Positions 1,069-59,620 of a DNA stretch of 64,000 bases are shown here, piece by piece. Source of the DNA: Holosporales bacterium (GTDB lineage: Bacteria > Pseudomonadota > Alphaproteobacteria > UBA3830 > JAIRWN01); NCBI GenBank assembly GCA_031267535.1, contig JAIRYS010000002.1, positions 4,326 through 68,325 of the forward strand, in the 5' to 3' direction. The translations under genes were made by a program, and so were the position numbers. A model generated the notes under the pieces. That model was not told the DNA's origin and did not search any database. It saw only the letters and a program-made list of their open reading frames with translations. The number at the start of each line of letters is the position of its first letter. Positions within the stretch are counted from its first letter, which is position 1.

Positions 1069-1605
1069 ATTATGCCATTAATGTTGACTGATATTAGAGG
1101 AAAAGTTATGAGAAGCATTATAATAGCATCAGCGGCGGTTGTGGCTGCTTGTTCCCGAGATCGCAAACTATGCGCGAACTAAGCCGGCTTTGCATGGTTG
1201 TGTAAATTTAGATGGAGTTTGTTATCACGAACAAAGCGACGGATCTTTTGATGTCGTTACAACGAAAATCTCCACCCCCTTCGATAAGTATCTTCTTTTG
1301 AGAGGGCCGATTTGTAGAGAAGGAAAAGCTGGCACGGTGAAACGTATTGTTAATGGCTCCCTCCGGGGTTTTATGTCCGCTAAGTCAAGTTGCGCATACA
1401 TTCCGGCAAGTGTAGAGGGACTAAACGATAGATGTTTTGATAAATTTCGCAATCTGGCTTGCATAGCATTTGAGTCCGGATCGCTCTTGAGAAGAATCGG
1501 CGATTGTGTCTTTTTAGACTGTACGAAGCTAAGTTTTATGTACATTCAGCAAAATGTTACGTCGCTTGAAAGACTCTGTTTTGGCAGATGTAGCGATTTA
1601 GGTAA

Positions 1606-1642
1606 CGTAACATTTGAGCGCGACTCGCAGTTGAAAGTGATC
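1606..1642 (+). repeat. Copy 1 of a 37-bp exact intragenic direct repeat
   Basis: cgtaacatttgagcgcgactcgcagttgaaagtgatc is identical to 1888-1924. A degenerate third copy starts at 2033. Confidence 0.9.
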
Positions 1643-1887
1643 GGCCCTAGTGTCTTTAGCGCCTGCGGTATGCCATTTGTGCACGTTCCGGAAAATATAA
1701 AAAGGTTCATCGATGGGTGTTTTAATGAATGCGGAATGTTTAGTCTCACATTTGAGCCAAACGCGTAATTGGAAACTGTCGGTCGTAAAACCTTTTTAGG
1801 CTGTTTCAATCTGGAATCTGTGCGCATTCCGGCAGGTGTAGGAAAGCTCGACGACGAGTGTTTTAGCGGATGCATCAGTCTGGCCAG

Positions 1888-1924
1888 CGTAACATTTGAG
1901 CGCGACTCGCAGTTGAAAGTGATC
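1888..1924 (+). repeat. Copy 2 of the 37-bp exact intragenic direct repeat
   Basis: Identical to 1606-1642 and offset by 282 bp (94 codons, two 47-aa double LRR units). Confidence 0.9.
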
Positions 1925-2442
1925 AACGGATCTACCTTTTCATACTGTTCCGATTTGCGATCCATGCGTATTCCGCCAAGTGTAGAAGTGTTCGACTATA
2001 GGTGTTTTGACGGATGCGTCAATCTACGCGAGGTAACATTTTAGCGCGACTCGCGGTTGAGACTTATGGGGACTATTCCTTATGAAGTTACGGTTATAGG
2101 TTGTCCTTTAGCCACACGAAGAAGGTAATATAAATCCAGCCAAGTTGGCTTAGTTTATAAATAGGGTTGACGCTTGGCATCCCTCAGCGTAACTACACAA
2201 AATCTCCAGCTGCTCTGCAACGGGGGGGCGCTCAAGTTGGTGGCAGATCATGCAAGACTTTATCAGCTTAGGTATAAACTAATATAGGCTCGTTAAACTG
2301 TGCGCCTGCAAGAAAGTGAAGTTTTGGTTCAAATTCGTCCATCCTAGAAAATCATGTTGAGGGATATCGTACTAATAATGGATGGATGCGCACTGTTTTG
2401 ATCTACGCTATCAAAGCAAAATCTATTATAAACCCTAAACGT

Positions 2443-5192: not shown

Positions 5193-5303
5193 ACGTTAAA
5201 GCCTGAACTCAGGCCAACTTATACCTAAAATAAGGCTTATTTTAAAATTGTTTCATAAACAAACTGTGACTATGCTGCTTGGTCAGACGCGTAAGGTGGC
5301 TTG

Positions 5304-6395
5304 ATGCGTATAGTTTTTGTTATCTCATCGCTTGGGTCAGGAGGGGCTGAGAAGGTCCTGTCGGGACTTGCCAACCGTTTTGTAACGAAAAACAATGAAG
5401 TATCAATTGTAACTTTCTCTCAAAAAGGCGCTGTTCCTTTCTATCCGCTTGATCCACATATAAGCCTAATACAACTGGATCAACTTAGAGAAGACACGTT
5501 TTGCCTAACGCGCTTAAAGAATATCGCTAAACGTATATTTTGCCTGAGAAAAATGCTGAAAGCCCTGGTTCCTGATGTGGTGATTTCTTTTATAGAGGTT
5601 ACAAATCTCACTGTTTTGATTGCCGGCATAGGCCTTAAGGCGCCAGTTGTTGTATCTGAGCGTACATCCATTAAAGATCATCAAATTCCAACGCTATACA
5701 AAAAATTACGCATGATTTTATACCGGAAAGCCGCTAAAGTCCTGACGCAAACTGAATCTAATAAACAATTGTTGAGTAATCTAAAGAATGTTCAAGTCAT
5801 ACCAAACGCAGTTACAGCCCCAAAACACCAGAAAAAACGCATGTGCTCTAAGGCAACAAACATCATCTCAACTGGGCGCTTGTGCCGGTCAAAAGACTTT
5901 GAGACTCTTATTAAAGCGTTTGCCGGCTTAGCGCCTCAATACCCCCAACTGAAACTGGCCATCTATGGCGATGGAGATAATAGAGCTAACCTTGAGAGCC
6001 TTATAGCTTCCTTTGGGCTTGAAGATAAGGTTTTCCTGCCCGGCGTTACTTCCGATGTGTACGGCGTTCTGCAAAAAGCGGATCTGTTTGTTTTTCCATC
6101 GCGATATGAAGGTTTTCCCAATGCTTTGTGCGAGGCTATGGCAGTCGGCCTTCCGGTTATAGCGTCTAATTGCCCAGGGAATATCGATGTTGTCAGAGAT
6201 AAAATCGACGGCCGACTCTTCCCGATTGGAAACGTAAATACTCTGACTGACCTAATGATTGAGCTGATTGAAGATTGCGAACAAAGACAACTCCTGTCCG
6301 ATAACGCACAACAAATAGTAACCAGATTTAATCCAGACGAGATATTTACGATGTGGGACCGGGTGGTTAACGAGGCCGCGAACCTTCGTAATTAA
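5304..6395 (+). CDS. GT-B (family 4-like) glycosyltransferase
   Basis: SSLGSGGAEK N-terminus and FPSRYEGFPNALCEAMAVGLPVIAS (EX7E region). ATG 5304 follows an AAGGTGG RBS; the track starts at TTG 5301. Confidence 0.85.
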   Translation: MRIVFVISSLGSGGAEKVLSGLANRFVTKNNEVSIVTFSQKGAVPFYPLDPHISLIQLDQLREDTFCLTRLKNIAKRIFCLRKMLKALVPDVVISFIEVTNLTVLIAGIGLKAPVVVSERTSIKDHQIPTLYKKLRMILYRKAAKVLTQTESNKQLLSNLKNVQVIPNAVTAPKHQKKRMCSKATNIISTGRLCRSKDFETLIKAFAGLAPQYPQLKLAIYGDGDNRANLESLIASFGLEDKVFLPGVTSDVYGVLQKADLFVFPSRYEGFPNALCEAMAVGLPVIASNCPGNIDVVRDKIDGRLFPIGNVNTLTDLMIELIEDCEQRQLLSDNAQQIVTRFNPDEIFTMWDRVVNEAANLRN

Positions 6396-7447
6396 TAGAG
6401 CGCTTTAAACGCTTGTCAAGCCGCCAAAAACACCAATCGCTTACGCCTGCATCAAATGCAGCCCGTATTTGCTGGTCAATTTGTTTATTGCCGTACTTTT
6501 GGTACGAATGAACGGGCAGCCAATTTGCAGTAAATCCCTGTAGGTAAGGGCGTATGACCGCTTTTGACTTATTGTTTTGCTTTTTGGCCTCGATCGCCTT
6601 TTGCAAAACTCTGTATACTATTTGGTACGGCTCAAGGTCCGGATGATCTATTCCCATTGAATTATCTCTATAATGAGACGGATAGATCATCGGACATATT
6701 ACATCCACCTTTTCCGATATAAGATTATAATCTTGGCCAATTCTCGCCGTAGCCTTAATGGTATCCTCGCCCAATGTGTCGGGAATAACACACCCAAACA
6801 CATCTACTGACACCTTAACTTTCAAGGATTTTAGCTCCTCCATAATAAAATCAAAGAACAATCCAATTATCTCTGTTCTTGAGGTTTTTTGCGCCAGCTC
6901 GCCATAGTCGGCCTCTTTATTTTCGAACGCAGAAAAACGTACGTAATCAAATTGTATCTCTAGAAAACCGGCTCTTGCTGCCGCCTTTGCTATATCTACC
7001 AAATATATCCAGTTTTTCTTTTCATAGGGATTTAACCAAACCATACCTTTCTTGTCCTGAAGGACGCTACCCCCCCCCCCCCCCTCCCTTGTTACGAACC
7101 GCAAGGCGCGGTATCAATCTGGCTCTGTAAGGATCCAAGAAAGCAACTATACGGGCGATTGGATATATTCTATGTTGCTTTAAAAGTCTGACAGCCGCTT
7201 TAACTTTGTCATTGCATATAATTTGGCCAAACTCATTTTTAACATCGACAACAACCGCATTGGCCGATACCTTTTTAGCAGTTGCGATTACTGAATAAAC
7301 ATCGTCTATCGAAGCAACGTATATACCGCGAATTGGTTCGCTTTCCAGCTTTCCGCTAGCTTGATCGTTTTTAGGTGCGCAGCAGAAAGTCAATACGGCA
7401 AAAATGACTAGTGTAAAACGATACGTTGGCATGTCACATTTTAGCAT
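6367..7447 (-). pseudogene. DUF4015 / GH-like putative polysaccharide hydrolase lipoprotein, frameshifted in a poly(G) tract
   Basis: Two ORFs (7067-7447 and 6367-7104) abut in different frames at the G15 run. Joined, they read ...AVRNK-GGGGG-SVLQDKKGMVWLNPYEKKNW...EIQFDYVRF, which is typical of the DUF4015 glycosyl-hydrolase-like domain. N-terminal signal MPTYRFTLVIFAVLTFCC. Confidence 0.75.
7070..7084. repeat. Homopolymer C15 on the + strand (G15 on the coding strand)
   Basis: Counted directly: c at 7070, ten c at 7071-7080 and four c at 7081-7084, followed by t and ccc. Confidence 0.95.
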
Positions 7448-10735: not shown

Positions 10736-11200
10736 TTTGAGAAAATGGGAAGTGGATATACCCTGAACGCGCTAAGGAAAAGTAGGCCTCTTTACTTGGC
10801 TTCAAGTGTTCGTTTAACAGACGTTCAATTATTTGGGTGATTGCTTACGTAGGTGTTATCTGTATTCGTCTAATTTGATGTTCATTGAGATTCAAATGAA
10901 TTGATATGATATCATTATGATATTACCAATCAGTATTGAGGCTTATATGTTCAGGAAACCGCCGTTTCATATGACTTCGATCATTATCGATTGTGCTTAG
11001 AAAATTTGCATAATTTTGGGGCGGCTAGAGCATTATAATTTCAAAGTACACAGCGATATTCATCTAAGGAAGACCACAGGCGTCTGACAAAAACTGATTT
11101 GCATTTCCTAAATCCCTTCATACTTTACTTTATTATTGTCATAACCTTTGGTTAACTTAAATTAATCGTTCGATCTAGGCAGCTTAGATTTGTACCAAGA

Positions 11201-12415: not shown

Positions 12416-13087
12416 TTAGAAATCCAAATCGCAGTAGTATGATGGAGGTGGAACAGCCGGCACATGATCATCCAAAATGGGCCTGAAGCTTGGCCGTGAT
12501 TTGACTTTTGCGTACCACTCCTTCACAACCGGATGCTTTGACCAGGATATTGCGCTTATGTAGTCCAAACAAGATATATGCCCAGCCGCTACCAGATCCG
12601 CAAGCGACAATTCTGTTCCTGCAAGGTAATTTCTGCCCTCTAACAAGCTTGTGATGTAGGCAAAATGCCGGTCCATGTTAGCATTGGCCCTTCTGATTAC
12701 TGATGAATCCGGGACGCCTTCATGCAGGTTGCGCTTCATAACCTTTTCGTAAAGCATCATATAAGAGACTTCGCTGTGGAACGTCTGATTGAACCAATCG
12801 CTTAGTCTGCGCACTTCAAGCATTTGCTGAAAATCTTGACCAATCAGCTTAGTTCCTGAATCATATTTCCGATTAAGATAATCAGCGATTGCACCATTCC
12901 CTGCAATAATTTCGCCATTTACGTCAACCAGAAGCGGAACCTGCCCGCTAGGATGTACGCCGATGAATTCCGGCCTGCGCTCCCAATATCTTTCGACAAT
13001 CAGGGCGCACTCAAGCATCTTTTCGCCTAGCACAAGCCGTACAGTTCTGCAAAAAGGACATAACCAATAATGATAAAGCGAACGCAT
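12416..13087 (-). CDS. Glutathione S-transferase / Grx2-like protein
   Basis: 223 aa. N-terminal thioredoxin-like fold with a CPFC motif and a C-terminal GST helical region (SLADLVAAGHISCLDY). Confidence 0.8.
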   Translation of the reverse strand: MRSLYHYWLCPFCRTVRLVLGEKMLECALIVERYWERRPEFIGVHPSGQVPLLVDVNGEIIAGNGAIADYLNRKYDSGTKLIGQDFQQMLEVRRLSDWFNQTFHSEVSYMMLYEKVMKRNLHEGVPDSSVIRRANANMDRHFAYITSLLEGRNYLAGTELSLADLVAAGHISCLDYISAISWSKHPVVKEWYAKVKSRPSFRPILDDHVPAVPPPSYYCDLDF

Positions 13088-13161
13088 TTCACATATATCG
13101 TACCTACTTAAGAATAAAGCAATGATATGCTAAAAGTATAATATTTGATTAAGCGTTTCAG

Positions 13162-13962
13162 ATGGATATATTACAAGCCATAATAACCGGCGCGATTCAA
13201 GGCATAACCGAATTCGTTCCAGTCAGTTCTTCGGCACACTTGGCAGGGTTGCCGTTGATTATGAAATGGTCAGATCCCGGCCATGCGGCAGATGTGTTTT
13301 TGCATTTTGGTTCGTTATTTGCTGTGTTTGTAGTGTTTTGGAAGGAGGTTGCGCTTATCTTAAAAGGCGCCCTGCACATCGTTACTCGTCAAGCCAGCGA
13401 CCAAAGAACGTATGCGCTGTCGCTGTTAGTAGCCAGCATCCCCACTATTGTGGTATTTGGCATTATCGAAATTTTCTTCCCGCTTAGAATAAATTCGCTG
13501 CTGTTTATTGCTTCAAACTCCATACTTTTTGGCGCGCTGCTTTGGTTGGCGGATCGCCAACCAATAAAACAACCAACGGATAAGCAAGTATCCTGTAAAG
13601 ACGCGCTTATAGTTGGATTTTTTCAAACATTCTCAATTATCCCAGGCGCAAGCAGGTTGGGGACATGCCTGACAGGTATGCGCATATTGGGCTATGACAG
13701 AATTACTTCTTTCAGATTCTCTGTTTTAATGTCGATTATTCCTGTTGCCGGGGCAGTTTTTATTAAAACCTTAAAGGTTTTATTTTCTTTTGTATATCTG
13801 TCTTTAGACGAAATGATGTTGTCGTGCTTAGTGGCGTTTGTCCTTGGTATGTTAACTTTAAAAATTGTGCTGGCATGGCTTAAAAACGGGTCATTTTTGC
13901 CGTTTGTCTTGTATAGGATATGCCTTGGGACAGCGCTTATCGGTTTTTGTCTGCTAGCATGA
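13162..13962 (+). CDS. uppP: Undecaprenyl-diphosphate phosphatase
   Basis: 266 aa, polytopic. Signature GITEFVPVSSSAHL. Confidence 0.9.
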   Translation: MDILQAIITGAIQGITEFVPVSSSAHLAGLPLIMKWSDPGHAADVFLHFGSLFAVFVVFWKEVALILKGALHIVTRQASDQRTYALSLLVASIPTIVVFGIIEIFFPLRINSLLFIASNSILFGALLWLADRQPIKQPTDKQVSCKDALIVGFFQTFSIIPGASRLGTCLTGMRILGYDRITSFRFSVLMSIIPVAGAVFIKTLKVLFSFVYLSLDEMMLSCLVAFVLGMLTLKIVLAWLKNGSFLPFVLYRICLGTALIGFCLLA

Positions 13963-14831
13963 AAAAAGTCAAGAAAGCAATATTCCCCGTCGGGGGCATG
14001 GGAACCAGGTTTCTGCCAGCGACTAAGGCTATGCCAAAAGAAATGCTGCCGGTTATTGACAAACCGCTTATCCAGTACGCTGTCGAAGAAGCGCTCGACG
14101 CTGGGATAGAGGAGCTTATATTTATAACTGGTCGAGGAAAAACCGCCATAGAAGACCATTTTGACTATAGCGTTGAGCTTGAGTCAATGCTGGCAGCCAG
14201 AGGGAACGCTCGGTTTATAGATGAGATCAACAAGCTTATCTTACCTGTCGGACGAGTATATTACGTAAGGCAGCAAAAACCGCTGGGGCTTGGACACGCT
14301 GTATGGTGTGCGCGAAATTTGATTGGCGACGAGCCGTTTGCCGTAATCCTAGCAGATGATCTTATCTTCGGCCAGAATTGCCTTAAAGAATTAATCTCAG
14401 CTTGCGATAATGGCAATGTAGTAGCTGTAATGCGCGTAGACCCTGAACAAGTCGACAAGTACGGCATATTAGATATAGACGCCTGCTCAAGCAACATCGT
14501 CAAAGCCAAAGGCGTAGTCGAAAAACCTAAGGTAGGGACAGCCCCGTCTAATGTTGCGGTAATTGGGCGTTATGTGCTTTATCCAGAGGTATTTCGTCAC
14601 TTGGAAAACGTAAACACGGGTATCAACGGCGAAATCCAACTAACGGACGCTATAAATTCTATGACGCCGACTACAAGCCTGCACGGCGTTTTCTTTTCCG
14701 GCACGCGCTTTGATTGTGGGACCAAGGAAGGGATGGTACAGTCCACCATATACGGCGCGCTCAACAGGAAAGAGCTGGCGGACAGTACGCTTAGCTATAT
14801 GGAAAGTGTCATGAAAACGGAGACAAAATGA
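13959..14831 (+). CDS. galU: UTP-glucose-1-phosphate uridylyltransferase
   Basis: MKKVKKAIFPVGGMGTRFLPATKAMPKEMLPV. The ATG overlaps the uppP TGA (ATGA). The track ORF starts earlier, at 13920. Confidence 0.92.
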   Translation: MKKVKKAIFPVGGMGTRFLPATKAMPKEMLPVIDKPLIQYAVEEALDAGIEELIFITGRGKTAIEDHFDYSVELESMLAARGNARFIDEINKLILPVGRVYYVRQQKPLGLGHAVWCARNLIGDEPFAVILADDLIFGQNCLKELISACDNGNVVAVMRVDPEQVDKYGILDIDACSSNIVKAKGVVEKPKVGTAPSNVAVIGRYVLYPEVFRHLENVNTGINGEIQLTDAINSMTPTTSLHGVFFSGTRFDCGTKEGMVQSTIYGALNRKELADSTLSYMESVMKTETK

Positions 14832-37309: not shown

Positions 37310-39946
37310 GTGTTTTTGCTAGATACCATAAGGAAAATCGTTGGTTCCCGGAACGAGCGCGTTATCAAGCAATGCAGAAAAACTGTGCGGGCGATAAATG
37401 CGCTAGAGCCGGAAATATCGAAGCTCAGCGACGATGACTTAAAGAATAAGACAGCAGAATTCAAAAAGCGCATCGGGGACGGAGAAACGCTTGAGAACAT
37501 ATTGCCGGAAGCTTTCGCGGTTGTGCGAGAAGCGTCGATCAGAACGCTGGGGATGCGGCATTTCGATGTTCAGCTAATCGGCGGAATGGTCCTGCATGAA
37601 GGTAAAATTGCTGAGATGAAAACAGGCGAAGGCAAGACCCTTGTCGCTACGCTGCCGGTATACCTTAATGCGCTGACAGACAATGGCGTGCATGTAGTTA
37701 CCGTAAACGACTACCTAGCCAGAAGGGACGCCCAGTGGATGGGCAAGGTTTATGAATTTTTGGGGTTAAGCGTTGGGGTCATCGTTAATAGTCTTAACGA
37801 TTCTCAGCGGCGTGACGCCTATAATTGCAATATAACTTATGCCACTAATAACGAACTGGGGTTCGATTATCTGCGCGATAATATGAAGTTCTTCAAGAAC
37901 GATTTTGCGCAAAGACCGTTTAGCTATGCCATAGTGGACGAAGTCGACAGCATCCTGATAGACGAAGCTCGAACTCCGCTTATCATATCTGGTCAAGCAG
38001 AGGATTCAACTGAGCTGTACAGGCAGGCCGACAAACTGATTCCTTCGTTGTCGAAAGACGATTATGAGGTAGACCTTAAGCAAAGGCAGGTCACGCTTAC
38101 CGAAGCGGGCAATGCTCACATAGAGGATATACTCAAGCACAGCGGCTTGCTGAAATCAGAAAACCTCTATGATTTTAGTAACATGACCGTAGTTCATCAC
38201 TTGAATCAGGCGCTTAAGGCGCATTTTTTGTTTCGTAAAGATGTGGACTATATAGTCAAAGACGGAAAGATCATAATTATAGATGAGTTTACCGGACGCA
38301 TGATGGAAGGGCGGAGGTATTCTGAGGGGCTGCATCAAGCTCTGGAGGCTAAAGAAGGGGTCAGGGTAGAGATGGAAAATCAAACTCTGGCGTCGATTAC
38401 GTTTCAAAATTTCTTTCGTACATATCCAAAACTGGCTGGTATGACCGGTACGGCGGAAACAGAAGCTGCCGAGCTGATGGACATATATAAGCTTGATACG
38501 ATTGTTATTCCGACTAATGTGCCTGTTCAGCGTAAAGACCTAGATGACGAGATATATCGCACTGAAGGCGAAAAGTTTAAAGCTATCGTAGATTTAGTGA
38601 AAGAGTGCCAGTCCCGCAAACAGCCGGCGTTGATCGGAACAATAAGCATCGAAAAATCCGAGCAATTATCCCAGCATCTTAAGAAGGAAGGGATAAAACA
38701 TAATGTGCTAAACGCTCGTTATCATGAAATGGAAGCTCAAATAATCGCCGAAGCAGGTCGACCTGGGGCCGTAACCATTGCTACCAACATGGCTGGACGA
38801 GGTACCGATATAAAACTGGGCGGAAACCTTGAGGCGCGGATTGGTACTGAACTGGCAGGTATAGAAGACCCAGATATCATCAGGGAAAAAACGCAGCAGT
38901 TCGCCGACGAGCTTAAACACGATTTTGAGATAGTAAAACAAGCCGGCGGGCTTTACATAGTTGGTACAGAGCGCCATGAAAGCCGAAGGATTGACAATCA
39001 GCTGCGCGGCCGTTCTGGTCGACAAGGCGACCCCGGGGTTTCAAAGTTCTTTCTGTCGCTTCAGGATGATCTGATGAAGATATTTGGCTCGAATAAACTA
39101 GACAAGGTGTTACAGCGCCTTGGGTTAGAAGAAGGCGAGGCCATTACCCATCCTTGGGTTAATAAGGCGGTTGAAAAGGCTCAAGGACGGGTTGAAGCGA
39201 GAAACTATGACCTACGTAAGCATCTGCTCAAGTACGACGACGTAATGAATGATCAACGGAAGGTAATTTATTCGCAACGTAAAGGCCTGATACTAGATGC
39301 TGATCCAGAGGTATTGAAAGAAGAAATTTTTGATATGCGTACGGAGGTAATCGATAACCTCGCGGAGCAATACATGCCGGTTTCGCTTCCGACAGATCAG
39401 TGGAATTTAGATGGTCTGGCCGAGGAATTTAACAATATCTTTGGCGCTTCGATGAAAGTCTCCATGTGGAAAGCAAGCCCTGAAGTTTCGCGCGATGTTA
39501 TACATAAACAGCTAACTGACGCTGCCGAAGTCGCTTATCAGGAAAAAGAAAGCCGTTATACGCCGGAGGTTATGCGTCAGGTCGAGAAATCAGTCATGCT
39601 GCAGGTTATCGATCAGCACTGGAAAGAACACCTGCTCAGTCTGGACTGGCTGCGTCAAGGAATTAATCTGCGCGCCTATGGACAGCGCGATCCGCTTAAC
39701 GAATATAAAACAGAGGCGTTTAATATGTTCGAGCTGATGTCAAACGCCATACGCTCAGACGCTGTACGTGTTATCAGCAAAATAGAGCTGTCTAATACTG
39801 AAGCTTTGAACGAATCTGCCAAAATCTCAACCTCTGAAGATACTGCTGGAATTTCACGGGCCAATTCAGCCCAGAATCTGTCAAGAAACTCCCCCTGCCC
39901 ATGTGGCAGTGGCAGAAAATACAAACACTGTCACGGAAAAATCTAA
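37310..39946 (+). CDS. secA: Preprotein translocase ATPase SecA
   Basis: 878 aa. [26 protein letters not shown] and a C-terminal zinc motif [17 protein letters not shown] start. Confidence 0.97.
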
Positions 39947-40226
39947 GTCTGTGTAGCTGAGAACCAGATTTTTGCTGTAACGTTGATACAGCAGCGTAAA
40001 AATCAACTAAGCTTGATCGAAGAAATCACTAAGGGTTTCGAGTTGCCGCCTTAGTGAGGCAAAAATACCTTGACTGATTGGTTAAAAAAGACAATCACTG
40101 ATATAGCCCAGTAGAGTTGTTGGGACAAGCGCCGAGTTTTTTTAAGCGAATGACTTCCGGCATTTGATTTTAGCACAAGTCTTGATTGTTTAGGATCAAA
40201 TCTGGAATGTTGATTAATTACTGGTA

Positions 40227-41471
40227 CTATTTTCCCCAATTTGCTGATGATTTTTCACCGATTCTAAATTTTTTATCTATGACCTTGACCACACAGCAAT
40301 CGGACCAGACATTCAGCGATGTTTCCACCATATCGATTATTGCATAAAAAGGAAGAATCAGCCAAAGAATATCAATAGAAATATCCATACTAATCAACAG
40401 GCTCATACTCAGAAAAAAGCATCCCATAGGAACGCCGGCATTTCCGATAGCGGCGATGGTGGATATAAAAATCCACTGCAGAAGCGTAAATAAATTACTT
40501 TCGATTCCATTGTTTTGCATGACGTAGATAACGGTGGTAAAGATAAACGCGGCGCATCCGTTCATATTAATTGCGGTGCAAAGCGGAAATGCAAATCTGC
40601 TGATTTCTCGTGATACTTTTAAGTTGTTTTCCGCCGTTTCCATCGTTATTGGCAATGTTCCCACCGACGATTTAGAGAAAAAGGCCACCGACAACGCTGA
40701 AAGCATGGCCTTCAGCGTGGCTAATGGATTTATTTTATGCGCCCACAGGAATATTGGCAGCACAAAAATTCCCTGCACAACATTGGACAAAAGTACCACG
40801 GCCAGATATCCGCCCAGTCCCTGCAGGTTGGTTCCATTCTTCAGCTGCCCAATGGCGATGGAGATAAATCCAAACAGAGCCAATGGAAGCGCTTTCACCA
40901 CCCATCCAATGATGATTAAAAACAGCCCCTGGATCATTTTAAAAAAAATATTCAGCGACCGAGATTCATTTATTGGCATATGCCTGACGGCGATTCCAAT
41001 GACAATGCCTATAAAAAGAGCGCCCATTACATTATGTTCTAAAAATGGAGACAATATGTTGGATGGAATAATGCTTAGTACATAATTCGCATACTTTCCG
41101 TTCTGGATAGCATCAATGGGATTGCCGCTGACTGCTGAAGTAATATTTGCTGGAGAAATTAACAGATACAGAATGCACGCTACAGAGGAAGCAATCACCG
41201 TTGTTCCTACGGTGTACAAAAGCGTATGTTTTCCAATTTGTTTCAATTGAATGTTACCGCTCTGCTGAGATATTGAGGCAATCACCGCTACAGCGATTAT
41301 TGGCAGACTCATGCATTTGAAAATCTTTATAAAGATACTTGATATAAAATCAGATATCGGCAGCATGAAATCTGCGTACCCGCATATACATCCTAAAATG
41401 ATGGCGAGGGCGTACAGCATCCCATTATGTTTCGCAAGTATTTTTATTTTTAAAAAATCACTCAATAACAT
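40227..41471 (-). CDS. Dicarboxylate/amino acid:cation symporter (DAACS, GltP-like)
   Basis: 414 aa, polytopic. FSKSSVGTLP (HP1-like) and AINMNGCA (NMDG-like) motifs. Confidence 0.85.
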   Translation of the reverse strand: MLLSDFLKIKILAKHNGMLYALAIILGCICGYADFMLPISDFISSIFIKIFKCMSLPIIAVAVIASISQQSGNIQLKQIGKHTLLYTVGTTVIASSVACILYLLISPANITSAVSGNPIDAIQNGKYANYVLSIIPSNILSPFLEHNVMGALFIGIVIGIAVRHMPINESRSLNIFFKMIQGLFLIIIGWVVKALPLALFGFISIAIGQLKNGTNLQGLGGYLAVVLLSNVVQGIFVLPIFLWAHKINPLATLKAMLSALSVAFFSKSSVGTLPITMETAENNLKVSREISRFAFPLCTAINMNGCAAFIFTTVIYVMQNNGIESNLFTLLQWIFISTIAAIGNAGVPMGCFFLSMSLLISMDISIDILWLILPFYAIIDMVETSLNVWSDCCVVKVIDKKFRIGEKSSANWGK

Positions 41472-43100: not shown

Positions 43101-44609
43101 TTATTTAGCTATAGCGTCTGGTCTGTTAGCGGTTATAGCGGCAAACTGCTTACTTAGACCGTATACAGCAACGATCCACATGCAAGCAACAAATAAGAAA
43201 ACAATGCCGATAATTGGCGACAGATCAAACAGCGTCCAGCCCGGAAACAAAAACAACAACAGTTGTTGAATCGCTGCGCCACCAGATTTACCGAAGCGGC
43301 CGCCGACCACTTCAACTGCCGCTTTGCCTTTAATCTTTAGCTCATCGTCCAGCGGGATGTACGACATTTCCTTGGTTGCGTCAAACAGTGAATACTTTGT
43401 GGATTTCGCCAAAACATTTTGCGCAAAGCCTATATAAACCGCCAGCCCAATTGGTGCAATTGTTAGCCCGGCCAGCATAGGGTCGAGCAGGTATCCATAC
43501 ACTACAAAGAAGAAAAACAGTACGCCTGTTACCGCTATCATAACCGGGGTGACTACAGCGCTAGTGAACCAGCTGAATCGGCGAACAATGTTCATGCCGA
43601 TAAGCATCATAACCAAAGCTGCAGTGCCTGTATACATCTGCAAGCGTCCCATGATGGCGTTATATTCAGTGCTGTGCGAGCAGAAAGCACGCATACGGTC
43701 TTTCCAGATGCCTTCAACCAAGTTTATGCTTACGCCATAACATATGATCAGCAGCACGATATATCCCAGATATTTTGACGTAAATATGTACTTAAAGCTT
43801 TCGCCCAAAGACATTTTAGCTTTCTTCTTTTTTGTTTTGCCTGCATTAGCCTCTGGATCATAGAAACGCTTATCGGTTAGAACGTTCCTCTCCATCCACC
43901 AGTATATACACATAATTATGACGCAAGACGAAATGACAAAGATCATGATGCTGTGAAGAGAACTGTCCCAAGCCGCGATGTTTTTGCCGCTGCTGGAGAG
44001 CTTGACTACAAGATTGCCGGCGGCTATTGCGCCAAAGTTACTGAAAAAACCAAACATACTGTAGAAACGTCTAGCTTCCTTCAGATTGGTAATCTCATTT
44101 GCATACTGCCAGAACATGAGCGATATCATCACGCTGCCCCAAAGCTCCGCCATTATATAAAACAAGGACAGCGTCCAATTGCCGGCAATCAACAGCAGCC
44201 ACCTGAATCTAGGCCAAGACGCTATAACGGCAGTAAGATCCGGATGCAAAGCATCTCTGTTGGGATACAGGAAAGACACAAACAATACGAGGTATAGAGC
44301 AAAAAAAGAGGTTACTGAATAGAACAGCTTTGGACGGTCTAAGACATTAGCCAGCTTCGAATAAACCAACATAAATATGACCGCGCTGGGCAACACGGCA
44401 AACAGCTTAAGGGCGCTTATGATTTCAGCTCCACAAAGCGGAACTATCAACGCGTCTTTCGTACAGCGCAAGGTGCTGTAGTTAAAGACGATAAACAGCA
44501 TCATAAAAGCTATTGGCAAAAATTTCTTAAGTTCAAAATTGTGTATAGGCCAAAGAATCGAACGGAAACCCTTAAACTCAGCTTCCTGAGCCTTTGCTGC
44601 TTTAGACAT
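43101..44609 (-). CDS. tlc: ATP/ADP translocase (TLC-family nucleotide transporter)
   Basis: About 500 aa, 12 TM segments. ILWPIHNFELKKFLPIAFMMLFIVFNYSTLRCTKDALIV. ATG 44609 is preceded by AAAGAGGGA; the track starts at 44633. Confidence 0.9.
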   Translation of the reverse strand: MSKAAKAQEAEFKGFRSILWPIHNFELKKFLPIAFMMLFIVFNYSTLRCTKDALIVPLCGAEIISALKLFAVLPSAVIFMLVYSKLANVLDRPKLFYSVTSFFALYLVLFVSFLYPNRDALHPDLTAVIASWPRFRWLLLIAGNWTLSLFYIMAELWGSVMISLMFWQYANEITNLKEARRFYSMFGFFSNFGAIAAGNLVVKLSSSGKNIAAWDSSLHSIMIFVISSCVIIMCIYWWMERNVLTDKRFYDPEANAGKTKKKKAKMSLGESFKYIFTSKYLGYIVLLIICYGVSINLVEGIWKDRMRAFCSHSTEYNAIMGRLQMYTGTAALVMMLIGMNIVRRFSWFTSAVVTPVMIAVTGVLFFFFVVYGYLLDPMLAGLTIAPIGLAVYIGFAQNVLAKSTKYSLFDATKEMSYIPLDDELKIKGKAAVEVVGGRFGKSGGAAIQQLLLFLFPGWTLFDLSPIIGIVFLFVACMWIVAVYGLSKQFAAITANRPDAIAK

Positions 44610-44727
44610 TTGTCCCTCTTTTGAAAGTACCAAAATGTATACAACCCATCATAAACTTTTGCAACCCCATTTTCCGATAATGTCACACAAACCTAGCTAC
44701 AAAGCCAATTGCCTTATTTCACGCATT

Positions 44728-58639: not shown

Positions 58640-58664
58640 CTATAGCAAAACAGAAAGGCAGGGT

Positions 58665-58686
58665 GGGGGGATTCTGCCCCCCCCCC
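58665..58686. repeat. G6-ATTCTG-C10 inverted homopolymer pair in the gyrB upstream region
   Basis: On the + strand, gggggg at 58665-58670, attctg, then c x10 at 58677-58686. On the gyrB strand this reads G10-CAGAAT-C6, 35-56 nt upstream of the ATG. Confidence 0.9.
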
Positions 58687-58828: not shown

Positions 58829-59620
58829 TTAATCTACACTTGGCGCTGTTCCTAATTCTCCGCTAGAAACACGAACATTCGCTTCGGCATTCAGCAGATC
58901 CTTTCGTACTCGGTCTATTTGACCTCGTAGAAGCACACCAAAGAGGTTGTGCTCATGTTCATATTTTTCGAGCAAAGTTAGCGATTTTGTCTTTCGTAAC
59001 ATTTCTATTACTTTTGTCTTTGCCATTGGCGTGCTTGTAGCGCCACTAGAGTCAGGTAAGGCGACAAAGGCAAGAACCCCAGAACAAGGATTCCTAAGCT
59101 TCCTATCTTCAGGGTTCCATACCAACAGTCACGTTTTGATATTATTCTCGAAAGGAGCAACATCGCTGGCGATCTTTCTGTATTCTAATGCGCTAAGTAT
59201 AAACTCACTATCGCCGTACAATGCCCCGAACATATCAATCACATCGGGATTATCTCTCCCTATATGTAATTCAATTAAATGGCTTTTGACGTCACGAAAT
59301 ATATCACCAACTTCTGGATTTGAAGTCACGAGATGTTCGTAGGGCCACTTGTTGCATGTAAGACCAAGCGGAAGAAAATGTCTCCTATCAATCACGTGTT
59401 TAACTCTGTCAAAAGACGCACCAAGATATAATGTTTTTTTGTCTAACGCGGGAGGCAATAAATCAAGTAGACCAAAGACAACCTCCGCTTTTAAGGTCGC
59501 CGGTGTTTTTGTTCTCCCTCTCATCGTCCTTGCCCCTTGTGCAGGGGCAATTGACTGCAGAAGAACGCATCCAAATACAGCCGCGTGACAAAAAAACTTA
59601 TTCATAATCAAATCTATCAA
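58829..59620 (-). pseudogene. Hypothetical secreted protein interrupted by one in-frame TGA
   Basis: ORFs 59129-59620 and 58829-59125 are in the same frame (...ENNIKT-TGA-LLVWNPEDRK...). N-terminal signal-like MNKFFCHAAVFGCVLLQSIAPAQG. No family recognised. Confidence 0.5.

What the first reader, a model, noticed from the sequence alone, without database searches (positions are those of the whole stretch)
7070..7084. A G15 homopolymer frameshifts a DUF4015/GH-like surface-polysaccharide hydrolase gene: candidate slipped-strand ON/OFF switch
- **What the sequence shows:** an uninterrupted run of 15 C (G15 on the coding strand) lies exactly where two minus-strand ORFs (7447-7067 and 7104-6367) change frame.
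- **Frame logic:** upstream the gene reads AAG GGA (GGG)x5 TAG. Downstream the conserved part resumes as GGT AGC GTC (SVLQDKKGMVWLNPY...). A tract of 14 or 17 G (length = 2 mod 3) would give one about 360-aa lipoprotein-type protein with an intact GH-like domain. At 15 G it is OFF.
- **Why it stands out:** a 15-nt G run is very unlikely by chance in sequence that looks moderate in GC (about 40-45% by eye, not computed). The gene is convergent with, and overlaps by 29 bp, a GT4 glycosyltransferase.
- **Interpretation (inference):** long G/C tracts in surface-structure genes are the classic contingency-locus mechanism in Neisseria, Haemophilus and Campylobacter. I am not aware of this being a typical feature of reduced intracellular alphaproteobacteria.
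- **Alternative:** a homopolymer sequencing or assembly error.
Basis: partly seen in the sequence, partly recalled or inferred. Interest (0 to 1): 0.55.

Follow-up and report, generated by a model that had tools for sequence, protein, structure and literature searches.

The report
Poly-G frameshift in decaying hydrolase gene
A run of 15 G really does break the reading frame of an otherwise well-preserved sugar-cleaving lipoprotein gene in an intracellular Holosporales-like bacterium, but the sister genome carries its own separate frameshift, so this looks more like a dispensable gene being lost at a mutational hot spot than a proven on/off switch.

Summary
C15 lies at 7070-7084 (G15 on the coding strand). 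Chance expects about 2e-5 such runs per window. The tract sits exactly at the frame change between ORFs 7447-7067 and 7104-6367. With 14 or 17 G the two ORFs fuse into a 359/360-aa protein that matches DUF4015 (PF13200) end to end (E 1e-78) and models as a confident TIM barrel.

The tract is lineage-specific. None of 120 homologs has a Gly run at this position, and the syntenic sister genome (76% aa identity) reads KESGK there. The sister's gene is also broken, by an independent 1-nt deletion outside any repeat, 45 nt upstream and in the opposite direction.

dN/dS of 0.22-0.30 says the gene was constrained for most of the divergence, so both lesions are recent. Each copy has also lost one family-invariant residue. 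The window copy has in addition a non-canonical lipobox. Nearby there is a truncated Fic gene, plus two ORF pairs split by in-frame stops that are candidate pseudogenes.

Best reading: a slippage hot spot has inactivated a dispensable gene. Reversible switching is mechanistically plausible but not shown. No reads or second strain were available, so tract-length variation and a ±1 miscall remain untested.

The parts
7070..7084 (-). Uninterrupted G15 homopolymer (five in-frame GGG codons), a lineage-specific expansion. It is 10 nt longer than the corresponding sequence of the sister genome.
7067..7447 (-). 5' ORF (126 aa from the ATG at 7447; the start conserved with the sister genome is more likely the ATG at 7432). 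It encodes the signal peptide and the first strands of the DUF4015 barrel, and ends ...NKGGGGGG-TAG.
7067..7069 (-). TAG stop reached in the upstream frame immediately after the G tract.
6367..7068 (-). 3' part of the DUF4015 gene in the +1 frame (SVLQDKKGMVWLNPY... to the stop codon). It retains 29 of the 30 near-invariant family residues in this segment.
7382..7393 (-). Lipobox region L-T-F-C, with Phe at position -1. Orthologs have L-T-S-C or L-S-S-C, so the window's version is non-canonical.
   Evidence: read against the established lipobox consensus [LVI][ASTVI][GAS]C
6406..6426 (-). Degenerate post-beta8 motif: W-R-L-D-K-R-L instead of the family's W-N-P-x-x-x-Y. It carries a 3-nt deletion and has lost a Tyr that is invariant in 114 homologs (Y347L).
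5301..6395 (+). Convergent GT4 glycosyltransferase. It is intact, overlaps the DUF4015 3' end by 29 bp, and the pairing is conserved in the sister genome.

Best explanation
The G15 tract is a real, lineage-specific homopolymer expansion. It lies in the codons of a beta-hairpin turn of a DUF4015 TIM-barrel, GH-like lipoprotein gene, in an obligate-intracellular Holosporales-type bacterium.

At the recorded length the gene carries one nucleotide too many. Translation stops at the TAG right after five GGG codons, leaving a 126-aa N-terminal stub. The catalytic barrel, with no signal peptide of its own, is not made.

The most likely biological meaning is non-adaptive. The gene has become dispensable in this clade and has recently been knocked out at its most mutable site, as part of ongoing reductive evolution.

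A 15-G run is expected to slip during replication, so the frame can in principle flip back (14 or 17 G = ON). A low level of full-length product could also arise by +1 ribosomal slippage at GGG-TAG or by transcriptional slippage.

Shown: the tract, the frames, the domain, the lack of conservation, the independent lesion in the sister genome, and the selection signature. Inferred: slippage, reversibility, leakiness and dispensability.
For: - **Tract and frame logic** are confirmed.
- **One gene, not two.** The joined product is a single DUF4015 domain. It models as a TIM barrel with mean pLDDT 89.6, and the Gly run lies in a lower-confidence loop.
- **No conservation of the tract.** None of 120 homologs has four or more consecutive Gly. 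The spacing between the conserved N/D-K dipeptide before the hairpin and the Trp of the WLNPY motif after it is 12 residues in every homolog inspected (Holosporales and Firmicutes). It is 13 in the sister and would be 16 here with 14 G.
- **Independent lesion in the sister.** The locus L001 is syntenic (gltX-GT4-DUF4015-pepP-glyS, 83% nt identity over 8.6 kb). It has no tract (AAA GAG AGC GGT AAG). Its gene is split by a 1-nt deletion in non-repetitive sequence 45 nt upstream, which needs a -1 correction. That is a separate lesion in the opposite direction.
- **Selection signature.** dN/dS is 0.30 (N part) and 0.22 (C part). Neighbours give 0.19 (GT4) and 0.03-0.10 (housekeeping genes), at dS about 0.55-0.85. 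The gene was therefore constrained for most of the divergence, with recent relaxation.
- **Extra blemishes.** Each copy has lost one residue that is invariant in 114 homologs: the window Y347L, with WNP changed to WRL and a 3-nt deletion; L001 D68N. The window's lipobox has Phe at -1 where orthologs have Ser.
- **Decay elsewhere in the window.**
  - A Fic gene is reduced to its first 46 codons by a deletion of about 900 bp.
  - Two ORF pairs are separated by single in-frame stops, making them candidate pseudogenes.
- **Assembly quality.** Five A8/T8 runs lie inside intact ORFs, so there is no systematic homopolymer error.
Against: - The ORF is otherwise remarkably intact. It keeps 37 of 38 near-invariant residues, has no further stops or frameshifts, and its dN/dS is far below 1. 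That pattern also fits a functional gene caught in the OFF phase.
- A pure, uninterrupted 15-G tract in a gene for an exported polysaccharide-active protein is what classical contingency loci look like.
- Among 114 homologs, 17% also deviate at one or more near-invariant columns, so one such change is weak evidence of decay.
- The exact tract length in a metagenome assembly may be off by one. If so, the gene is simply intact.
- The L001 lesion could itself be an assembly error, although it is not in a homopolymer.
Confidence: 0.45

Rival explanations
1. Selected contingency locus. The poly-G tract is maintained because stochastic, reversible ON/OFF switching of this exported GH-like lipoprotein benefits the symbiont, for example by remodelling an envelope or exopolysaccharide seen by the host. 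The assembly caught the OFF phase.
For: - The G15 tract lies inside the ORF, and length changes toggle between a full-length and a 126-aa product.
- The rest of the ORF is intact and constrained: dN/dS 0.22-0.30 and 37 of 38 near-invariant residues kept.
- The tract sits in a loop or hairpin turn where extra Gly residues are plausibly tolerated.
- The product carries an N-terminal signal peptide of the lipoprotein type found in its orthologs, belongs to a GH-like fold class related to the PgaB C-terminal domain and Cwp19, and is paired with a GT4.
- One such locus per 64 kb is not below the density seen in organisms that use contingency loci (my own knowledge of Campylobacter).
- Titles and abstracts listed give precedents (abstracts read, main texts not):
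  - poly-G phase variation in obligate intracellular Chlamydia (PMC4514472, PMC4488443);
  - slipped-strand mispairing in a secreted glycosidase, Gardnerella NanH3 (10.1101/2020.09.16.300947).
Against: - No length polymorphism has been observed, and no second strain was found.
- The tract is absent in the sister genome and in every homolog.
- The sister has irreversibly frameshifted the same gene, which shows the gene can be lost.
- The window copy has a non-canonical lipobox and has lost an invariant Tyr.
- No other coding G/C tract lies in the window; the C10 at 58677 is a hairpin arm.
- No report of phase variation in Holosporales was found.
Confidence: 0.25
2. Homopolymer length miscall. 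The true tract is 14 (or 17) G, the gene is intact and ON, and the apparent frameshift is a consensus error of sequencing or assembly at a very long G run.
For: - This is the only lesion in an otherwise intact, constrained ORF.
- The source is a JGI metagenome assembly.
- A length error of ±1 at homopolymers of 15 is common on all platforms (established knowledge).
Against: - Five A8/T8 runs inside ORFs are all in frame, so the assembly has no general homopolymer problem.
- The sister's independent frameshift shows that inactivation of this gene is biologically plausible.
- A miscall would not remove the tract itself. Both flanks are colinear with the ortholog, so a hypermutable run of about 14 G or more is real either way.
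Confidence: 0.2
3. Programmed or tolerated recoding. The gene is expressed despite 15 G. The route would be +1 ribosomal frameshifting at the last GGG codon, with the TAG stop in the A site and an SD-like G-rich stretch upstream (geometry like prfB), or RNA-polymerase slippage producing 14-G transcripts.
For: - The sequence geometry fits. In GGG-TAG, a +1 slip re-pairs on GGT and then reads AGC GTC, giving exactly the 14-G protein.
- GGG is the rarest Gly codon. No GGG-GGG dicodon occurs in 9,936 codons of 19 other genes.
- A low level of ribosomal frameshifting in a G run that compensates a 1-G indel is documented for herpesvirus thymidine kinase (review PMC5009743).
Against: - The site is not conserved in any ortholog. 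That fails the usual criterion for programmed recoding.
- The sister's lesion needs the opposite shift and has no slippery site.
- Transcriptional insertions in E. coli and Buchnera prevail in A and T runs (abstract of PMC5574713).
- The efficiency is expected to be low.
Confidence: 0.07

Closest known systems
Poly-G/C contingency loci of Neisseria, Campylobacter, Helicobacter and Bordetella (slipped-strand mispairing inside the ORFs of surface-structure genes)
   Same: A long uninterrupted G tract lies inside the ORF of an exported, carbohydrate-active protein. Tract length modulo 3 decides between a full-length and a truncated product.
   Different: No tract-length polymorphism is documented here. 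The tract is not conserved in the nearest relative. Only one coding tract is seen in 64 kb. The host is an obligate-intracellular Holosporales-type bacterium. The gene shows mild signs of decay, and its ortholog is independently inactivated.
Homopolymer-associated pseudogenes and 'rescued' frameshifts in reduced endosymbiont genomes (Buchnera and Blochmannia poly(A) tracts; cited in PMC5009743)
   Same: A frameshift at a homopolymer in an otherwise conserved gene of a host-restricted bacterium undergoing gene loss. Low-level rescue by polymerase or ribosome slippage is possible.
   Different: Those cases involve A/T runs in very AT-rich genomes, and some are conserved across lineages. Here the run is G15 in a 45% GC genome and is confined to one lineage.
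Gardnerella NanH3 sialidase poly-C slipped-strand mispairing (bioRxiv 10.1101/2020.09.16.300947; title and abstract only)
   Same: A homopolymer of C/G inside the ORF of an extracellular glycoside hydrolase.
   Different: In Gardnerella, length variation was demonstrated experimentally. Here it could not be examined.
PgaB C-terminal domain (GH153 PNAG hydrolase) and Cwp19 (GHL10 peptidoglycan hydrolase), the closest characterised folds to DUF4015
   Same: A (beta/alpha)8 barrel. Foldseek gives probability 1.0, TM about 0.60, over roughly 360 aligned columns.
   Different: Only 11-13% sequence identity. The substrate and activity of DUF4015 are untested. The only solved DUF4015 structure (4s1a) is an uncharacterised fragment.

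Membership tests
SSR-driven phase-variable (contingency) locus | A simple-sequence repeat long enough to be hypermutable (G/C run of about 8 or more) within the ORF or promoter | tested here: met
   G15 at 7070-7084 inside the ORF
SSR-driven phase-variable (contingency) locus | A change in repeat number switches between full-length and truncated product | tested here: met
   8, 11, 14 or 17 G give a 357-360-aa ORF; 13, 15 or 16 G truncate it
SSR-driven phase-variable (contingency) locus | Tract-length polymorphism within or between populations of the same strain or species | not testable with these tools
   No reads are available. No second contig of this strain was found in the metagenome or genome collections or the exact-protein index. 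The protein search found no in-frame variant at 90% identity or more.
SSR-driven phase-variable (contingency) locus | The repeat is retained at the same site in related strains or species | tested here: not met
   The sister genome L001 reads AAA GAG AGC GGT AAG. L002 and all 120 homologs lack any Gly run.
SSR-driven phase-variable (contingency) locus | The remainder of the gene is intact and under purifying selection | tested here: inconclusive
   dN/dS is 0.22-0.30 and 37 of 38 near-invariant residues are kept. Against this, there is Y347L, WNP changed to WRL, a 3-nt deletion, and Phe at lipobox position -1.
Frameshift pseudogene in a reductively evolving genome | The reading frame is disrupted relative to intact homologs | tested here: met
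Frameshift pseudogene in a reductively evolving genome | Independent inactivation or loss in related lineages, and other decaying genes nearby | tested here: met
   L001 carries a 1-nt deletion at a non-repeat site. The window has a Fic remnant. Two ORF pairs split by in-frame stops are candidate pseudogenes.
Frameshift pseudogene in a reductively evolving genome | Relaxed selection (dN/dS approaching 1, multiple lesions) | tested here: not met
   dN/dS is 0.22-0.30 and each copy has only one frame lesion. This is compatible only with very recent inactivation.
DUF4015 (PF13200) GH-like TIM-barrel family | Profile match above the gathering threshold over the whole domain | tested here: met
   265 bits against a cutoff of 27; residues 45-342 match profile positions 10-308 of 313
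DUF4015 (PF13200) GH-like TIM-barrel family | (beta/alpha)8 barrel fold | tested here: met
   AlphaFold2 model with mean pLDDT 89.6 and pTM 0.87. Best PDB matches are 4s1a, PgaB C-terminal domain and Cwp19.
DUF4015 (PF13200) GH-like TIM-barrel family | Glycoside hydrolase activity on a defined (surface) polysaccharide | not testable with these tools
   No characterised member was found
Bacterial lipoprotein (SPase II substrate) | Lipobox [LVI][ASTVI][GAS]-C after a hydrophobic signal segment | tested here: not met
   The window has L-T-F-C, with Phe at -1. L001 (L-T-S-C), L002 (L-S-S-C) and other Holosporales homologs are canonical.
Programmed +1 ribosomal frameshift (prfB type) | The shift site and in-frame stop are conserved among orthologs | tested here: not met
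   Orthologs have no tract and no stop at this site

The most novel reading that the evidence does not exclude
This is a genuine, selected contingency locus in an obligate-intracellular Holosporales symbiont. A poly-G tract, newly evolved in a tolerant hairpin loop, stochastically switches an exported envelope or exopolysaccharide hydrolase ON and OFF, partnered with a GT4. That would give bet-hedging at the host interface, in a bacterial order where I found no report of SSR phase variation.
Probability: 0.22. Interest if true: 0.55.

Novelty: new member of a known kind. Interest (0 to 1): 0.32.

Why it matters
If the tract does vary in length within populations, it would extend classical slipped-strand phase variation to protist-associated Holosporales. 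It would also point to a DUF4015 hydrolase and GT4 pair as a host-interface determinant, and give the uncharacterised DUF4015 family a phenotype handle.

If it is decay, as I think more likely, it is a clean snapshot of convergent, very recent loss of the same accessory envelope gene in two sister endosymbiont lineages. In one of them the loss happened at a self-generated mutational hot spot. That is useful as an annotation caution (call it a pseudogene or a variable-length tract, not two genes), but it is not surprising.

Tried and rejected
- **Search for a second copy of this strain, to compare tract lengths.**
  - The protein-pattern scan of metagenome contigs found nothing.
  - The exact DNA-flank scan gave one unrelated chance hit, L083.
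  - The genome-contig scan gave only relatives at 42% identity or less, mostly Firmicutes.
  - Exact-protein look-ups of the window's own C-terminal ORF, GT4 (two alternative starts) and pepP were all 'not on record'.
- **Conserved recoding site, considered and rejected.** The two lineages need opposite shifts (+1 here, -1 in L001), and L001 has no slippery sequence. I corrected this after re-deriving the frames (note 2).
- **Poly-G as a dark-cycle or assembly insertion, considered and rejected.** Both flanks are colinear with the ortholog across the tract. Only the exact length is uncertain.
- **Split gene making two functional polypeptides, considered and rejected.** The 3' part lacks a signal peptide, and one DUF4015 profile hit spans the junction.
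- **Other searches.**
  - NCBIfam has no model for this protein.
  - Rfam and tRNA scans found nothing relevant.
  - The promoter and terminator scan around the gene did not exceed the shuffled controls.
  - Searches for DUF4015 function and for Holosporales phase variation or homopolymers returned nothing informative.

Full report
**1. The observation**

The + strand carries an uninterrupted C15 at 7070-7084, which is G15 on the minus (coding) strand. The window is 44.9% GC. Apart from this tract and a C10 at 58677-58686, no G or C run exceeds 7. Base composition predicts about 2e-5 runs of 15 or more per window.

Two minus-strand ORFs, 7447-7067 and 7104-6367, overlap exactly at the tract. 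The upstream frame reads AAG GGA (GGG)x5 TAG. The conserved downstream sequence (SVLQDKKGMVWLNPY...) is one base further on. In-silico tracts of 8, 11, 14 or 17 G give one ORF of 357-360 aa; 13, 15 and 16 G do not. The recorded allele therefore has one nucleotide too many and needs +1 or -2.

So is the 29-bp convergent overlap with a GT4 glycosyltransferase at 5301-6395.

**2. What the gene is**

- **Family.** The joined 359-aa product gives one continuous DUF4015 (PF13200) match: residues 45-342 on profile positions 10-308 of 313, E 1e-78. NCBIfam has no model for it.
- **Fold.** With a 60-sequence alignment, AlphaFold2 gives a confident (beta/alpha)8 barrel, mean pLDDT 89.6 and pTM 0.87. The Gly run falls in the one internal 10-residue block where confidence dips (mean 79, against 96-97 on either side), between short hairpin strands that precede the strand at residues 136-138.
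- **Nearest structures.** The best PDB matches are:
  - an uncharacterised DUF4015 fragment (4s1a);
  - the PgaB C-terminal PNAG-hydrolase domain and the Cwp19 peptidoglycan hydrolase (TM about 0.6, 11-13% identity);
  - the cortex-lytic enzyme SleL (TM 0.50, 11% identity).

'GH-like, acts on an envelope or exopolysaccharide' is therefore a reasonable inference. No activity is known for the family.

Orthologs begin with a signal peptide and a canonical lipobox: L-T-S-C, L-S-S-C, L-A-A-C.

**3. The organism**

- The window encodes a TLC ATP/ADP translocase at 43101-44633. This is a hallmark of obligate intracellular energy parasites.
- The closest named homologs of the DUF4015 protein come from Holosporales MAGs.
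- Coding density is 88%.

**4. Comparison with relatives, the key evidence**

The protein search returned the window's own 3' ORF (P0001) and a 76%-identical 247-aa protein (P0002). It returned no in-frame variant of the window gene.

P0002 lies on a 94-kb JGI contig (L001) that is syntenic with the window: gltX-GT4-DUF4015-pepP-glyS, with the same 29-bp overlap and 83% nt identity over 8.6 kb.

- **L001 has no G tract.** The site reads AAT AAA GAG AGC GGT AAG (N K E S G K).
- **Its gene is nevertheless also split.** A single-nucleotide deletion in non-repetitive sequence (GATCCTTCCA-CGCTAG, against the window's GATCCTTACAGAGCCAG) lies 45 nt upstream of the tract position. It calls for a -1 correction.
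- **The two sister lineages therefore carry independent frameshifts in opposite directions.**
- **A more distant relative is intact and tract-free.** This is L002, 56-60% identical.
- **No homolog has a Gly run.** None of 120 homologs has four or more consecutive Gly.
- **The hairpin has a fixed length elsewhere.**
  - The spacing between the conserved N/D-K dipeptide before the hairpin and the Trp of the WLNPY motif after it is 12 residues in every homolog inspected.
  - It is 13 in L001.
  - It would be 16 here at 14 G.

The tract is thus a 9-nt (in-frame) plus 1-nt expansion specific to this lineage.

**5. Selection and decay signals**

Pairwise Nei-Gojobori estimates, window against L001:

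| Gene | dN/dS |
|---|---|
| DUF4015, N part | 0.30 |
| DUF4015, C part | 0.22 |
| GT4 | 0.19 |
| gltX | 0.10 |
| pepP | 0.08 |
| glyS | 0.03 |

dS is about 0.55-0.85. The gene was under purifying selection for most of the divergence. If constraint was lost, that happened only recently, in both lineages.

Of 38 columns that are at least 97% conserved in 114 other homologs, each copy keeps 37. The window has lost a 100%-invariant Tyr (Y347L), within a reworked WNPxxxY-to-WRLDKRL stretch that includes a 3-nt deletion. L001 has lost a 100%-invariant Asp (D68N). This is only mild evidence, because 17% of ordinary homologs also deviate at one or more such columns.

With L002 as outgroup, lineage-specific replacements are balanced: 22 in the window against 19 in L001. 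The window's lipobox has Phe at -1, where relatives have Ser, Ala or Gly. This violates the established consensus.

Elsewhere in the window:
- A Fic gene that is intact in L001 is reduced to its first 46 codons by a deletion of about 900 bp.
- Two ORF pairs are separated by single in-frame stops, TAA at 1766 and TGA at 59129, making them candidate pseudogenes.

The genomic background is one of ongoing gene loss.

**6. Artefact?**

The tract itself is not an artefact, because both flanks continue colinearly with the ortholog. Five A8/T8 runs lie within intact ORFs, so there is no general homopolymer problem. A ±1 miscall at 15 G cannot be excluded without reads, and none were accessible. Every attempt to find another contig of this strain failed.

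**7. Mechanism**

*Shown:* at 15 G, translation ends after KGGGGGG. The barrel-encoding remainder has no signal peptide of its own.

*Inferred from established knowledge of simple-sequence repeats:*
- A G15 run will slip at high frequency during replication, so the frame can toggle.
- The ON product would carry 3-4 extra Gly in a hairpin turn. From barrel topology, that turn is on the alpha-to-beta (non-catalytic) side and is probably tolerant of the insertion.

*Also inferred: leaky expression is conceivable.*
- Each GGG codon can re-pair perfectly in the +1 frame.
- The last GGG faces a TAG stop, behind an SD-like G-rich stretch. A +1 slip there yields exactly the 14-G protein.
- GGG is the rarest Gly codon, and GGG-GGG never occurs in 9,936 other codons.
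- Low-level compensatory frameshifting in a G run is documented for herpesvirus thymidine kinase (PMC5009743).
- Transcriptional insertions in bacteria prevail in A/T runs (abstract of PMC5574713), so RNA-level rescue is less certain for G.

**8. Weighing the readings**

Four things favour recent, non-adaptive inactivation of a dispensable gene at its most mutable site (confidence about 0.45):
- the lack of conservation of the tract;
- the independent and irreversible lesion in the sister genome;
- the small additional defects in both copies;
- the decay visible nearby.

A selected switch remains possible (about 0.25), because the ORF is otherwise very well kept. A length miscall, with the gene simply intact, gets about 0.2. 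Programmed recoding is unlikely (about 0.07), since the site is not conserved. These readings overlap: whatever the true length, a tract of about 14 G or more makes the frame unstable.

**9. Comparison with what is known, and novelty**

The locus works like the poly-G contingency loci of Neisseria and Campylobacter. It also resembles homopolymer frameshifts in reduced endosymbionts such as Buchnera and Blochmannia.

It meets the structural criteria for a phase-variable locus (tract, frame toggle). It fails the conservation criterion, and the defining criterion of length polymorphism could not be tested.

Precedents exist for poly-G variation in obligate intracellular Chlamydia and for slipped-strand mispairing in a secreted glycosidase, Gardnerella NanH3 (abstracts read, main texts not). 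I found none for Holosporales.

Verdict: a new member of a known kind, of modest interest (0.32). It would rise to about 0.55 if length variation were demonstrated.

Noticed in passing
window 58661-58686: This is the only other long G/C run in the window. A C10 (58677-58686) pairs with GGGTGGGGGG (58661-58670) across a 6-nt loop. On the minus strand the hairpin is followed by a T-rich tail and lies 46 nt upstream of the gyrB start (58630). It looks like an intrinsic terminator, or a structure in the gyrB leader, rather than a coding-phase switch.
   Followed up: partly
window 10947-11200 vs L001 1084-2240: L001 has an intact 322-aa Fic-domain gene between glyS and a DPBB lytic-transglycosylase-like gene. 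The window keeps only the first 46 codons (72% identity). About 1,025 bp of L001 correspond to 122 bp here, which indicates a deletion of about 900 bp in the window's lineage.
   Followed up: yes
window 1139-2044 (+): Two adjacent BspA-type LRR_5 ORFs (1139-1768 and 1769-2044) are in the same frame, separated only by a TAA at 1766-1768. This is probably one gene with a nonsense mutation.
   Followed up: partly
window 58829-59620 (-): ORFs 59129-59620 and 58829-59125 share a frame, separated by a TGA (59129-59131) plus one codon. Neither has a Pfam match. This could be a second nonsense pseudogene or a readthrough.
   Followed up: partly
window 43101-44633 (-): A TLC-family ATP/ADP translocase (E 2e-177), a marker of an obligate intracellular, energy-parasitic lifestyle.
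   Followed up: partly
window ~39000-41000: GC skew is positive up to about 40 kb and negative after it. Gene orientation converges at the same place (mostly + strand before, mostly - strand after). This pattern resembles a replication terminus.
   Followed up: no
L001 5990-6004: The sister genome's DUF4015 ortholog carries a 1-nt deletion in non-repetitive sequence, which creates a TGA at 6002-6004. It also has D68N at a residue that is invariant in 114 homologs.
   Followed up: yes
L002 1-1575 vs window 12416-14831: L002 is the contig with the intact, 56-60% identical DUF4015. It shares a GST-BacA-NTP_transferase block with the window, but the DUF4015 gene sits elsewhere, next to fabH and a radical-SAM gene and without a GT4 partner. 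The GT4 pairing is therefore not universal.
   Followed up: partly
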